From: a virus
IMG/VR virus record: IMGVR_UViG_3300032238_000944
Span: 18,926 to 82,925 of that record
Length of the DNA: 64,000 bases
Direction: 5' to 3' (one strand)
How positions within the stretch are numbered: the stretch's first letter is position 1; every line of letters starts with the position of its first letter. Below the pieces are notes generated by a model. The model did not search any database and was not told the origin of the DNA. It saw nothing but the letters and a program-made list of their open reading frames with translations. The translations under genes were made by a program, and so were the position numbers. Positions 4,522 through 20,717 of this stretch are shown here, in pieces.

Positions 4522-5158
4522 GTTTTTTTCAAATAAAAATTCTTTTGATATTATTCAAGATCCAATTAAAAATAGTTGGGGGCCATATTGGCATCTTAAT
4601 ACAAAAGAATATGAACCATATTGCTGGAATAATCAAGTATTCACTTGTGAAGAAATAGAAAGAATTAAAGTGATTGGATGTAGATTAGGAGTAGATAGGG
4701 CAACAACTGGCAATGGAAAGGATTGTCTAGATCACAGAAGATCTTTTACTTCTTGGATAAATCCAAATGAACATACAAGTTGGATTTATGAAAAATTAAC
4801 TCAATTGATAGATCAAAATAATCAACAATATTTCAATTTTGATTTAACTATGATTGAAACTTTACAATTTACTTATTATTCTTCACAAGAAGATGGTTGT
4901 TACAAAAGTCATATTGATCCCTTAAATTGGAGATTACCTCACAACAGAAAATTAAGTGTTGTAGTTCAACTTTCGGATCCGTCAGAGTATGAAGGAGGAG
5001 ATTTAAAGTTGCATAATTCTTATAATCCAGTGATAATTAATAAAGAAAAAGGTCTTATCATTACTTTTCCATCGTATACATTGCACGAAGTTACTCCAGT
5101 AACTAAAGGAGAAAGATATTCTTTAGTTGCTTGGGTTCATGGGCCTGCCTTTAGATAA
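4511..5158 (+). CDS. 2OG-Fe(II) oxygenase (PKHD-type)
   Basis: LQFTYY, HID, RKLSVVVQLSDPSEYEGGDL, HEVTPVTKGERYSLVAW. Confidence 0.9.
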   Translation: MTSEFFSNKNSFDIIQDPIKNSWGPYWHLNTKEYEPYCWNNQVFTCEEIERIKVIGCRLGVDRATTGNGKDCLDHRRSFTSWINPNEHTSWIYEKLTQLIDQNNQQYFNFDLTMIETLQFTYYSSQEDGCYKSHIDPLNWRLPHNRKLSVVVQLSDPSEYEGGDLKLHNSYNPVIINKEKGLIITFPSYTLHEVTPVTKGERYSLVAWVHGPAFR

Positions 5159-19308: not shown

Positions 19309-19544
19309 AACAACGTAAAAACTTGTGGAGATTGTGGGCAAAATCATTAGGTGAAAAAGCATCTAAATGTGATCGTGAGAGTGACACAATCGCTTTCATT
19401 CGTTCTTTCATCTTTATCACATATCTTATCACCAACTGTTTTATCATTTATGGTGTAGTTCGTACTCATATATTTCCAAAAACACAAAATCCAATTAAAT
19501 GTATTGTCATTAATAAATATGAATACGCTAAGAAAGTTCTATGA
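19305..19544 (+). CDS. Hypothetical membrane protein
   Basis: WRLWAKSLGEKAS plus TM segment. Confidence 0.7.
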   Translation: MKQRKNLWRLWAKSLGEKASKCDRESDTIAFIRSFIFITYLITNCFIIYGVVRTHIFPKTQNPIKCIVINKYEYAKKVL

Positions 19545-19744
19545 AATCCTTCCATCAATTTTTTGAAGATTTGGGTGAAAGAAGGCAACAACTTGCTCAA
19601 AGACAAAGAGATAAAGTTGTTGCATTCAAAGATAGAGCAAAAGCAAACATACAAAAACAAGCAGCAACTCATGCGGCTATTAAAAAACGTTATGATGCTA
19701 TGCAACAAGAAAGAGCAGAAAGAATGGCAAACAAATCTAGATAA
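19541..19744 (+). CDS. Putative capsid internal protein
   Basis: N-terminus MKSFHQFFE resembles T4 capsid-targeting MKTYQEFIAE; ATAAATA 19513-19519. Confidence 0.55.
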   Translation: MKSFHQFFEDLGERRQQLAQRQRDKVVAFKDRAKANIQKQAATHAAIKKRYDAMQQERAERMANKSR

Positions 19745-19751
19745 ATAATGG

Positions 19752-19806
19752 TGCTTATGTGTTTGGCGACTTATAAGCAGAAAGGGGGCAGAAATGCTCC
19801 TTTTCT
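19752..19806 (+). ncRNA. Candidate small RNA / regulatory leader complementary to the endonuclease 5' UTR
   Basis: Late-promoter-like ATAAATA 19741-19747, hairpin 19752-19779, GAAA-loop terminator-like stem 19779-19806; 16-bp complement to 19822-19838. Confidence 0.6.
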
Positions 19807-19808
19807 TG

Positions 19809-19816
19809 TATAAATA
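19809..19816 (+). promoter_or_regulatory. T4-type late promoter
   Basis: Perfect TATAAATA. Confidence 0.8.
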
Positions 19817-19839
19817 CTAATGCCAAACATATAAAGCAG

Positions 19840-20466
19840 ATGGAATACTACACTTACGCTTATTTGCGTGAAAATAGAACACCTTACTACATTGGTAAAG
19901 GTAAAGGTAATAGAGTTTACCAAAAAAATAGAAAATCAATAAACCCACCAAAAGATAAATCTAGAATAATATTTCTAAAACGAAATTTAACTGAAAAGGA
20001 AGCATTTAAACATGAAGTTTATATGATTTCTGTGTTTGGTAGAAAAGATTTGGGTACAGGTATTCTTTATAATCTTACAAATGGTGGAGAGGGAACTTCT
20101 GGAGCAAATAATTCGGGAAAAAGAAACGGTTTCTATCAAAAATCTCATACGGAAGAAACAAAACTAAAAATATCTAAAGCAAAAATTGGAACCAAGTTTC
20201 CTGAAGAATTAAAACCATTAGTATCCAAGAGAACTAAAAAAATGTGGGAAGATGGTGGTGTGTTTTCTACACCAAAGTTTAGACAAAAACTATCACAATC
20301 TTTATGCAAAAAGCAATATCAACTTACTAATGAAGAAGGGGAGGTATATTATACTAATAACATAGTGCTATTTTCCAAAGAACACAATTTAGATTACAGT
20401 TCAATGTACAAAGTTGTTAAAGGAAAACTAAAGTATTATAAAGGATGGGTAGGAAAAATCATATGA
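19840..20466 (+). CDS. GIY-YIG (Seg-like) homing endonuclease with NUMOD3 motif
   Basis: YYTYAYLRE..PYYIGKG..R, YNLTNGGEG, HTEETKLKISKA. Confidence 0.85.
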   Translation: MEYYTYAYLRENRTPYYIGKGKGNRVYQKNRKSINPPKDKSRIIFLKRNLTEKEAFKHEVYMISVFGRKDLGTGILYNLTNGGEGTSGANNSGKRNGFYQKSHTEETKLKISKAKIGTKFPEELKPLVSKRTKKMWEDGGVFSTPKFRQKLSQSLCKKQYQLTNEEGEVYYTNNIVLFSKEHNLDYSSMYKVVKGKLKYYKGWVGKII

Positions 20467-20498
20467 CTGGAACGATAAATATATAAAAAACGAAATAA

Positions 20499-20717
20499 AT
20501 GAAAACGTTTCAACAATTTCAAGAACAGTTGGAAAGAGGTAGATTAACTCCAGCAACACCTGCACAAACACAACAACAACGTGTTTCAAGTGTAAAGAGA
20601 GCAAGCATGATTGCTACAAAGATGCGTGGTCGTGCATCAGATGAATTAGATTCTCATCAATCCAACATGAGAACACTACTCAAAAAGTCTGGAGAAGATA
20701 TTAAAGGGGCCCACTAA
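20499..20717 (+). CDS. Putative capsid internal protein
   Basis: MKTFQQFQE N-terminus; ATAAATA 20475-20481. Confidence 0.55.
   Translation: MKTFQQFQEQLERGRLTPATPAQTQQQRVSSVKRASMIATKMRGRASDELDSHQSNMRTLLKKSGEDIKGAH

What the first reader, a model, noticed from the sequence alone, without database searches (positions are those of the whole stretch)
19741..20466. GIY-YIG endonuclease preceded by its own complementary small RNA unit (RNA-antitoxin-like module)
Seen, in order: late-type promoter ATAAATA (19741-47); hairpin TGCTTAT..ATAAGCA (19752-79); 12-bp GAAA-tetraloop terminator-like stem (19779-19806); second promoter TATAAATA (19809-16); leader GCCAAACATATAAAGCA (19822-38); ATG 19840. The 5' 16 nt of the upstream unit (UGCUUAUGUGUUUGGC) pair with nearly the whole leader with one bulge and one G-U, and the loop-proximal UUUGGC is poised to seed pairing. 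Known: T4 homing endonucleases such as I-TevI are silenced in read-through transcripts by RBS-sequestering hairpins. Inference: a separate promoter plus terminator points to a discrete ~55-nt trans-acting antisense RNA that restrains the nuclease, making a mobile nuclease + sRNA element. A guide role cannot be excluded, but nothing here supports one.
Basis: partly seen in the sequence, partly recalled or inferred. Interest (0 to 1): 0.8.

Follow-up and report, generated by a model that had tools for sequence, protein, structure and literature searches.

The report
Homing-endonuclease control cassette, candidate antisense RNA
A selfish DNA-cutting gene in this cyanophage arrives with a conserved ~100-base control unit whose upstream RNA arm pairs with the gene's own leader, as in a known phage T4 trick. 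The arm also has its own promoter-like box and terminator, so it may be released as a ~57-base antisense RNA that nobody has yet observed.

Summary
GATAAATA (P1, 19740-47) is followed by a 5' stem-loop (19753-78), a GAAA-tetraloop terminator hairpin (19779-19806), TATAAATA (P2, 19809-16), a leader (19821-38) complementary to 19752-68, and ATG 19840 of a GIY-YIG/NUMOD3 homing endonuclease.

The unit is a portable cassette. More than 110 distinct copies occur in cyanophage contigs, in unrelated contexts, in front of several GIY-YIG types and one HNH gene. Arm pairing is kept by compensatory changes (92.6% of cells paired against 77.2% in shuffles, 0 of 500 shuffles as high). G.U outnumbers A.C by 91 to 10, so selection acts on plus-strand RNA.

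The core logic is already known: a leader-masking hairpin that encloses a late promoter, as in T4 I-TevI and Aeh1 mobE, and Dassa 2009 for marine metagenomes. I found no description of three further features:
- P1 is near-invariant and lies 4 nt before the arm (62 of 90 copies; invariant in alignment A1).
- The 5' stem-loop covaries.
- A terminator sits between the arms.

Together these predict a 51-73-nt RNA. No RNA data could be obtained, so trans action stays unproven. This scan found the same cassette on at least 8 other genomes, with the same verdict.

The parts
19740..19747 (+). P1: late-promoter-type box GATAAATA at the 5' edge of the cassette. It contains the TAA stop (19742-44) of the upstream ORF 19541-19744.
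   Evidence: Sequence. The same octamer precedes ORFs at 20474 and 56690. All 17 N[AC]TAAATA sites in the window are on the + strand, and 13 lie 14-32 nt before an ORF start. The TAAATA hexamer is intact upstream of arm 1 in about 112 of 115 homologous cassettes that sit in unrelated contexts.
19752..19768 (+). Arm 1: 17 nt complementary to the endonuclease leader. It begins at about +1 of a P1 transcript (predicted start G19753).
   Evidence: Fold. Duplex -21.6 kcal/mol. Covariation with arm 2.
19753..19778 (+). SL1: 5'-terminal stem-loop. The 7-bp stem is GCUUAUG with UAUAAGC, and the loop carries the complement of the first nucleotides of the leader. It is mutually exclusive with the arm 1:arm 2 helix.
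   Evidence: Fold of 19753-19812. SL1 is predicted in 50 of 50 cassettes. Cognate stems average -6.0 against -2.6 kcal/mol for non-cognate ones, across 17 stem types.
19779..19808 (+). Intrinsic-terminator-like hairpin: 12 bp with a GAAA tetraloop at 19791-94, and a U-rich tail UUUUCUUGU that is partly paired with the 5' A-tract.
   Evidence: Stem pairs covary (helix 3). Near-identical hairpins follow genes and precede late promoters in P-RSM4 and Syn33. The simple consensus scan did not call it, because part of the T-run is counted as stem.
19809..19816 (+). P2: perfect T4-type late promoter TATAAATA, the only copy in the window. The predicted start is G19822.
   Evidence: 1 found against 6.8 expected. 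P2 is TATAAATA in 112 of 116 cassettes.
19821..19838 (+). Arm 2: the leader of the endonuclease mRNA, complementary to arm 1, with a bulged A at 19833. It ends 1 nt before the ATG.
   Evidence: The leader is fully unpaired in the fold of the P2 transcript alone.
19840..20466 (+). Free-standing GIY-YIG/NUMOD3 homing endonuclease gene (208 aa).
20474..20481 (+). GATAAATA late-promoter box for the downstream small ORF 20499-20717. This is context, lying just past the 3' edge of the insert.

Best explanation
This is the self-contained 5' control cassette of a mobile homing-endonuclease gene.

Shown: an upstream RNA segment (arm 1, 19752-68) and the endonuclease leader (arm 2, 19821-38) are kept complementary by selection on plus-strand RNA.

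Inferred from the T4 precedent:
- On any transcript that holds both arms (read-through from upstream genes or from P1), the 17-bp helix buries the leader up to 1 nt before the AUG and blocks initiation.
- The terminator between the arms stops most incoming transcription.
- P2, which lies inside the loop, starts late transcripts at the first base of arm 2. These transcripts lack arm 1 and can be translated.
- The nuclease is therefore made only late and at a low dose.

Inferred from conservation only:
- P1 is also a working late promoter.
- P1 and the terminator together release a ~57-nt RNA made of the 5' stem-loop SL1 plus the terminator hairpin.
- This RNA can pair in trans with the free 5' leader of P2 transcripts and damp translation further.

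My odds are about 0.8 that the cis mask operates, about 0.6 that a discrete P1 RNA exists, and about 0.4-0.5 that it regulates in trans.
For: Pairing is real and acts at the RNA level:
- Cognate arm-leader duplexes average -19.9 kcal/mol, against -10.1 for non-cognate pairs.
- RNAalifold recovers the long-range helix, and 8 of 9 pairs show double changes.
- 92.6% of cells are paired against 77.2% in shuffles (0 of 500 as high). The covariation score is 0.498 against 0.211, and at most 0.125 in the slid controls.
- Inside the arm duplexes there are 91 G.U pairs against 10 A.C.

Cis mask:
- The minimum-energy fold of the read-through RNA pairs nt 1-4 of arm 1 next to the ATG in 50 of 50 cassettes.
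- P2 lies inside the loop.
- The leader is unpaired in the P2 RNA alone.
- Precedent exists in I-TevI, I-TevII, I-TevIII, segB and Aeh1 mobE (PMC2988022) and in marine metagenomic endonucleases (PMC2677866).

Discrete RNA:
- A P1 box ([AC]TAAATA) is found in 48 of 50 cassettes located without requiring it; the TAAATA hexamer is intact in about 112 of 115.
- P1 sits 4 nt before the arm in 62 of 90 copies and in all 50 rows of A1, while the 4-nt spacer and the flanks vary.
- P1 variants (NATAAATA, NCTAAATA) match this phage's resident late promoters.
- SL1 plus terminator is predicted in 50 of 50 cassettes, and SL1 starts at nt 1-2.
- SL1 covaries.
- The net gain on forming the dimer is -13.3 +/- 1.8 kcal/mol in 111 cassettes.
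- Direct repeats flank the segment from P1 to the endonuclease stop in L035 and L017, so P1 belongs to the insert.
Against: - There is no transcript evidence of any kind. No RNA run was listed, and no paper I found reports such an RNA.
- P1 has another possible reason to be conserved: it supplies the stop codon of the upstream ORF in 64 of 89 contexts.
- P1 is rarely the full TATAAATA (9 of 90) whereas P2 nearly always is (112 of 116), so P1 may be weak.
- P1-SL1-terminator units almost never occur away from their target (1 orphan type among 111), so nothing requires action in trans.
- Three cassettes have a poor U-tract after the hairpin.
- The leader has no recognisable Shine-Dalgarno sequence, so 'RBS sequestration' is inferred from position only.
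Confidence: 0.55

Rival explanations
1. Cis-only mask. The arms serve solely to silence read-through transcripts, exactly as in T4 I-TevI and Aeh1 mobE. P1 is not a functional promoter, or its product is an irrelevant by-product. P1 is conserved as the cassette's A/T-rich 5' edge, which gives the interrupted upstream gene a stop codon. SL1 is only a co-transcriptional folding intermediate or a 3'-end stabiliser for upstream mRNAs.
For: - The mechanism is established and has been proposed before for marine endonucleases.
- The cis helix is the minimum-energy fold in 50 of 50 cassettes.
- The upstream stop codon lies in or at P1 in 64 of 89 contexts.
- The unit is virtually always adjacent to its target.
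- Two cassettes in one contig share the same arm (L205), so orthogonality is not enforced.
Against: - P1 stays intact where it does not supply the stop (25 of the 89 contexts with a long upstream ORF, plus 15 contexts with none).
- P1 covers only two reading frames.
- P1 varies only in the ways that resident late promoters vary.
- The P1-arm spacing is fixed although other spacers in the cassette vary in length.
- SL1 is kept by compensatory and G-U changes, which a cis-only mask does not need.
- A terminator between the arms lowers the share of transcripts on which a cis helix could ever form.
Confidence: 0.35
2. DNA-level element. The inverted repeat (arm 1/arm 2) acts as a pair of protein operators, for example endonuclease autorepression at both promoters as I-TevI does at its late promoter. 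Alternatively it acts as a recombination or cruciform site used for cassette mobility.
For: - I-TevI binds an operator that overlaps its late promoter.
- Each arm sits at the same distance downstream of a promoter box.
- The arm sequence tracks the endonuclease lineage in most cases.
Against: - G.U outnumbers A.C by 91 to 10 in the arm duplex, so the constraint is strand-specific and acts on RNA.
- A conserved bulge and the wobble pairs break the DNA symmetry.
- The same arm type is found with different endonuclease types (L100 against L107).
- SL1 and the terminator are RNA features.
Confidence: 0.05
3. The short RNA is a guide or specificity factor for the nuclease.
For: None beyond physical linkage.
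Against: - The only complement of arm 1 in the 82.9-kb record is the adjacent leader.
- The same cassette serves unrelated nuclease families, GIY-YIG and HNH.
- The protein carries its own DNA-binding modules: NUMOD3 and an I-HmuI-like C-terminal part.
Confidence: 0.02

Closest known systems
Late-promoter-in-hairpin translational masks of T4-family genes (I-TevI, I-TevII, I-TevIII, segB, Aeh1 mobE; also T4 e, soc, 49)
   Same: - A stable helix buries the translation start on transcripts that come from upstream.
- A TATAAATA late promoter inside the hairpin starts transcripts that lack the 5' arm.
- The regulated gene is a homing endonuclease in a T4-like phage (PMC2988022).
   Different: - Here an intrinsic terminator sits between the arms.
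- A second, conserved late-promoter box sits 4 nt before the 5' arm.
- The 5' arm folds into its own covarying stem-loop.
- The leader has no clear Shine-Dalgarno sequence.
- The whole unit is portable and shared by several endonuclease families.
5'-UTR hairpins of free-standing GIY-YIG/Vsr endonucleases in marine metagenomes (Dassa et al. 2009, PMC2677866)
   Same: This is probably the same element class. [quoted passage not shown] The authors read this as a cis translational hairpin.
   Different: The passages I retrieved by term search do not mention an upstream second promoter, a terminator in the loop, a 5' stem-loop or a released RNA; neither 'terminator' nor 'antisense' occurs in its main text. 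The figures are not held, so I could not check them.
Antisense-RNA control with a stem-loop-presented seed and intrinsic terminator (type I toxin-antitoxin RNAs, plasmid copy-number RNAs, P22 sar)
   Same: - A short two-hairpin RNA is predicted.
- The loop carries the complement of the target's single-stranded 5' end.
- The target is the translation start region of a potentially harmful gene.
   Different: - The RNA is encoded in tandem on the same strand, so complementarity comes from an inverted repeat rather than from overlapping transcription.
- Its existence is unproven.
- The regulated product is a 208-aa nuclease of a mobile element, not a small toxin.
- There is no evidence of differential RNA stability or of post-segregational killing.
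CfrI antisense RNA of cyanophage S-PM2 (Millard et al. 2010, cited in PMC2984593)
   Same: It is a cyanophage non-coding RNA linked to a homing endonuclease gene.
   Different: CfrI is about 225 nt, is transcribed from the opposite strand across the endonuclease gene and psbA, and has no sequence or architectural relation to this cassette.

Membership tests
T4-type late-promoter-in-hairpin translational mask | A stable helix covers the translation initiation region on upstream-initiated transcripts | tested here: met
   A 17-bp helix, 19752-68 with 19821-38, ends 1 nt before the ATG. It is the minimum-energy fold in the window and in 50 of 50 homologues and is supported by covariation.
T4-type late-promoter-in-hairpin translational mask | A late promoter lies inside the hairpin, so late transcripts lack the 5' arm | tested here: met
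   TATAAATA at 19809-16 lies between the arms. The predicted start at 19822 is the first base of arm 2. The leader is unpaired in that RNA.
T4-type late-promoter-in-hairpin translational mask | Upstream transcription actually reads through into the gene | tested here: inconclusive
   A terminator-like hairpin with a U-rich tail lies between the arms. Its efficiency is unknown, and no RNA data were available.
T4-type late-promoter-in-hairpin translational mask | Translation is repressed on long transcripts and relieved on late transcripts | not testable with these tools
   This needs reporter fusions or toeprinting.
GIY-YIG homing endonuclease (Seg/I-TevI-like, free-standing) | GIY-YIG catalytic domain with the conserved Tyr, Tyr, Arg, Glu and Asn | tested here: met
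   Y6, Y17-I18-G19, R25, E59 and N78 are invariant or nearly so in 38 homologues. The Pfam LEM-3 GIY-YIG hit is below the cut-off (18 against 27 bits). The model resembles UvrC and PD-T4-3 GIY-YIG domains only weakly (probability 0.8-0.94, E = 0.15-0.3).
GIY-YIG homing endonuclease (Seg/I-TevI-like, free-standing) | Modular DNA-binding region (NUMOD motifs or a helix-turn-helix) | tested here: met
   NUMOD3 scores 21.6 bits against a cut-off of 20.4. PHROG 314 'homing endonuclease' matches at E = 6e-15. The C-terminal part resembles the I-HmuI DNA-binding region, E = 4.5e-4.
GIY-YIG homing endonuclease (Seg/I-TevI-like, free-standing) | Intergenic insertion that is present or absent among related genomes, and homing activity | tested here: inconclusive
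   The gene lies between two paralogous small ORFs. Homologues sit in many unrelated contexts, with flanking target duplications in L035 and L017. No empty site was found for this particular locus. Cleavage activity was not testable.
Type I toxin-antitoxin system | A small toxic protein whose mRNA is neutralised by an unstable antisense RNA made from its own promoter | tested here: not met
   The product is a 208-aa homing endonuclease. Its toxicity is unknown, RNA stabilities are unknown, and the RNA is unproven. The resemblance is one of working principle only.
Trans-acting antisense small RNA | Own promoter | tested here: inconclusive
   The P1 box is conserved in about 112 of 115 cassettes and is of the same form as resident late promoters. 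Promoter activity was not measured, and P1 doubles as a stop codon.
Trans-acting antisense small RNA | Defined 3' end at an intrinsic terminator and a stable fold | tested here: met
   A two-hairpin fold is predicted in 50 of 50 cassettes. The window RNA folds at -25.5 kcal/mol, z = -5.2.
Trans-acting antisense small RNA | A discrete transcript is detected and has an effect in trans | not testable with these tools
   No RNA run was listed, and no report was found in the literature searched.

The most novel reading that the evidence does not exclude
T4-like cyanophage homing endonucleases carry a dedicated small RNA encoded on the same strand, directly upstream. It consists of a late promoter, a 5' stem-loop that presents a seed, and a terminator, and is 51-73 nt long. 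It base-pairs in trans with the 5' end of the endonuclease's late mRNA and sets the nuclease dose. This would be a portable nuclease-plus-antisense-RNA module, and the first trans-acting regulatory RNA class described for T4-like phages. Orphan copies, such as the one in L132/L137, could then silence the matching endonuclease of a co-infecting phage.
Probability: 0.4. Interest if true: 0.75.

Novelty: new variant of a known kind. Interest (0 to 1): 0.55.

Why it matters
Homing endonucleases are the main mobile elements of T4-like phages, and how their dose is kept harmless is only partly understood. This cassette shows that marine and freshwater cyanophage endonucleases of several families share one portable, insulated control unit. 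It consists of a terminator at the 5' side, a late promoter with a masked leader and, in many copies, a sigma-70-type promoter at or just after the endonuclease stop codon.

If P1 really produces the predicted RNA, it would add a trans-acting antisense layer to a textbook cis mechanism. It would also define a widespread small-RNA class in abundant ocean viruses. The module is compact and modular, with a constant scaffold and a variable 15-17-nt specificity segment. That makes it easy to test by compensatory mutation, and possibly useful as a programmable translational switch.

Tried and rejected
- **RNA evidence.** The look-up of sequencing runs (kind rna) on 19400-20700 listed no RNA holder.
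- **Rfam.** Nothing near significance was found in 19600-20000; the best hit had E = 3.4.
- **Empty site for this locus.** The 67-aa upstream ORF has no relatives in IMG/VR by the pattern search. The S-SSM7 match to 19317-19448 is not syntenic.
- **Flanking late-promoter repeats as recombination junctions.** I considered that P1 and the GATAAATA at 20474 mark a cassette bounded by late promoters. I rejected this as a general rule, because only 2 of 51 homologous endonucleases are followed by such a box.
- **Isolates with transcriptomes.** The terminator-like matches in P-RSM4, S-TIM4, Syn33 and S-RIM12 are ordinary terminator-plus-late-promoter junctions without arms.
- **Other targets of the RNA.** There is no other complement of arm 1 in the 82.9-kb record.
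- **Selection for orthogonal arms within a genome.** Multi-cassette genomes mostly have different arms, but L205 has two with the same leader, so no claim is made.
- **Column-wise counts for SL1.** The MAFFT alignment A1 shifts the 3' strand by two columns in about 20 rows. I therefore tested SL1 per sequence instead.
- **Consensus terminator scan.** It did not call the hairpin, because it counts part of the T-run as stem.
- **PDB sequence search.** It gave only chance-level hits for the protein.

Full report
**What is in the window**

The window is part of an 82.9-kb IMG/VR record of a T4-like cyanophage. From 19740 to 19842 the plus strand reads, in order:
- GATAAATA (P1, 19740-47). It contains the TAA stop of ORF 19541-19744.
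- Four variable bases.
- Arm 1 (19752-68). Its 5' half closes a local stem-loop, SL1 (19753-78).
- A 12-bp hairpin with a GAAA tetraloop and a U-rich tail (19779-19808).
- TATAAATA (P2, 19809-16).
- Five bases.
- Arm 2, which is the leader (19821-38).
- ATG at 19840.

The 208-aa ORF matches PHROG 314 'homing endonuclease' (E = 6e-15) and NUMOD3. The GIY-YIG hallmark residues are invariant in 38 homologues. Its model resembles GIY-YIG domains weakly, and the DNA-binding part of I-HmuI in its C-terminal half.

**Folding**

- The region 19741-19860 folds at -37.6 kcal/mol (z = -5.5). Arm 1 pairs with arm 2 around the terminator hairpin and P2.
- An RNA from the predicted P1 start to the U-tract (19753-19812) folds as SL1 plus terminator at -25.5 kcal/mol (z = -5.2).
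- An RNA from the predicted P2 start has its first 20 nt unpaired.

**It is a portable cassette**

A protein-based search of IMG/VR gave 80 loci, and S-SRM01 holds several copies. About 50 distinct upstream regions show the same order of parts, while the sequence 5' of P1 is unrelated between loci.

A second probe was independent of the protein: the exact 29-mer spanning the terminator and P2. It hit 114 contigs. Of 62 distinct loci analysed, 60 have a complementary arm and leader. The downstream ORFs include at least four GIY-YIG N-terminal types and one HNH enzyme. In all, 122 distinct cassettes were collected.

In L035 and L017, a 22-28-nt direct repeat of the upstream gene's 3' end brackets the segment from P1 to the endonuclease stop. 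P1 therefore belongs to the insert.

Many copies carry a sigma-70-like promoter (TTGAAA-17-TATAAT type) at or just after the endonuclease stop. Only 2 of 51 are followed by a late-type box. The element therefore looks like an insulated unit: a terminator at its 5' side, its own late promoter and, in many copies, a sigma-70-type promoter for the gene that follows it.

**Pairing is under selection, on RNA**

- Cognate arm-leader duplexes average -19.9 kcal/mol, against -10.1 for non-cognate pairs.
- Even on a plain MAFFT alignment, RNAalifold recovers the long-range helix, with 8 of 9 pairs showing double changes.
- With the terminator core added, 92.6% of cells pair against 77.2% in shuffles (0 of 500 as high). 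The covariation score is 0.498 against 0.211, and at most 0.125 when partners are slid. Thirteen of 16 pairs change on both sides.
- Inside the arm duplexes there are 91 G.U pairs against 10 A.C. This argues against a purely DNA-level inverted repeat.

**What is already known**

Leader-masking hairpins with the late promoter inside are the established control for T4 I-TevI, I-TevII, I-TevIII, segB and Aeh1 mobE (PMC2988022). Dassa et al. 2009 reported hairpins enclosing TATAAATA, with two complementary motifs, upstream of free-standing endonucleases in marine metagenomes (PMC2677866). The cis reading of arm 1:arm 2 is therefore not new.

**What goes beyond that**

1. P1.
   - When cassettes are found without requiring it, 48 of 50 have [AC]TAAATA directly before arm 1. 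About 112 of 115 keep the hexamer.
   - P1 lies 4 nt before the arm in 62 of 90 copies, and in all 50 rows of A1, although that spacer and other spacers vary.
   - P1 octamers are GATAAATA, AATAAATA, ACTAAATA and the like. P2 is TATAAATA in 112 of 116.
   - In the window, all 17 N[AC]TAAATA sites are on the plus strand. Thirteen lie 14-32 nt before an ORF start, and the resident ones have the same variants as P1. NATAAATA is the published cyanophage late-promoter form (PMC2984593).
2. SL1. It is predicted in 50 of 50 cassettes and starts at nt 1-2 of a P1 transcript. It is kept through 17 stem types, with cognate stems at -6.0 against -2.6 kcal/mol for non-cognate ones. Its loop carries the complement of the first bases of the P2 transcript.
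3. The terminator. A terminator-like hairpin lies between the arms in all 50 cassettes folded and in the 111 units found by the architecture scan.

Together these features predict a 51-73-nt two-hairpin RNA. Pairing it with the leader gains -13.3 +/- 1.8 kcal/mol net.

**Cautions**

- No RNA data could be obtained.
- P1 also supplies the stop codon of the upstream ORF in 64 of 89 contexts. That gives it a second reason to be conserved, but it does not explain the intact hexamer in the other contexts.
- An architecture scan of 1.37 Mb found 111 P1-SL1-terminator units, of which 107 are followed by P2 and a complementary leader. Only one type is an orphan, so nothing forces a trans role.
- The arm has no other complement in this record.

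**Verdict**

The element is a member of the known class of late-promoter-in-hairpin masks, elaborated with a conserved upstream promoter box, a 5' stem-loop and an internal terminator. These additions make a discrete antisense RNA plausible (about 0.6) and trans regulation possible (about 0.4-0.5). The 'antitoxin' label is only an analogy, and a guide role has no support.

This scan has already found the same cassette on at least eight other genomes, with the same verdict and likewise without RNA evidence.

Noticed in passing
window, whole (sites listed): The late-promoter motif N[AC]TAAATA occurs 17 times, always on the + strand and never on the - strand. About 22 sites are expected on both strands together for VATAAATA alone. 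Thirteen of the 17 sit 14-32 nt before an ORF start. The perfect TATAAATA occurs only once, inside the endonuclease cassette.
   Followed up: partly
window 19541-19744 and 20499-20717: The endonuclease separates two small paralogous ORFs (both begin MK[ST]F.QF.E.L). Each has its own late-promoter box, at 19512 and 20474. Neither has a Pfam or PHROG match.
   Followed up: partly
L003:1390-1496 (S-SRM01); L099, L130, L164, L190: This is a second cassette design. Arm 1 sits in the apical loop of a terminator-like hairpin (GTGGGCAGCAAC ... GTTGCGTAAGTCCCAC, then TTTT). TATAAATA and the complementary leader follow. The upstream promoter box is less regular here.
   Followed up: partly
L132:2980-3120 (same in L137): This is an orphan unit: TATAAATA, SL1, terminator and TATAAATA, followed by a non-complementary leader. 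It lies between a tail-tube-like gene and a T4_baseplate gene. Its arm would match the leader type AACCACCAGTTTAAG seen before other endonucleases (L098, L189). It may be a relic of a lost endonuclease or a free-standing RNA gene.
   Followed up: partly
L030, L001, L004, L009 and others, just after the endonuclease stop: Many cassettes end with a sigma-70-type promoter (TTGAAA, about 17 nt, TATAAT) that would restart early transcription of the downstream gene.
   Followed up: no
L035:1373-1394 with 2093-2114; L017:1248-1275 with 2006-2033: Direct repeats of 22-28 nt (71-82% identical), copied from the upstream gene's 3' end, flank the insert from P1 to the endonuclease stop. This looks like a target-site duplication that keeps both neighbouring genes intact.
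   Followed up: partly
L001 (MW015081 62515-63273); also B3, B23, Sf-CH5: GenBank annotates these homologous endonuclease genes as 'translation initiation factor 2'. This looks like a mis-annotation.
   Followed up: no
L161 (minus strand, near 5140): The same cassette precedes an HNH-type endonuclease, and it starts directly after a tRNA-like sequence.
   Followed up: no
L119:4401 and 5934; L158:848: In one contig, the upstream box of three cassette copies reads CTAATATA or CTAATAATA instead of CTAAATA, while P2 stays perfect. These are the only clear P1 variants seen.
   Followed up: no
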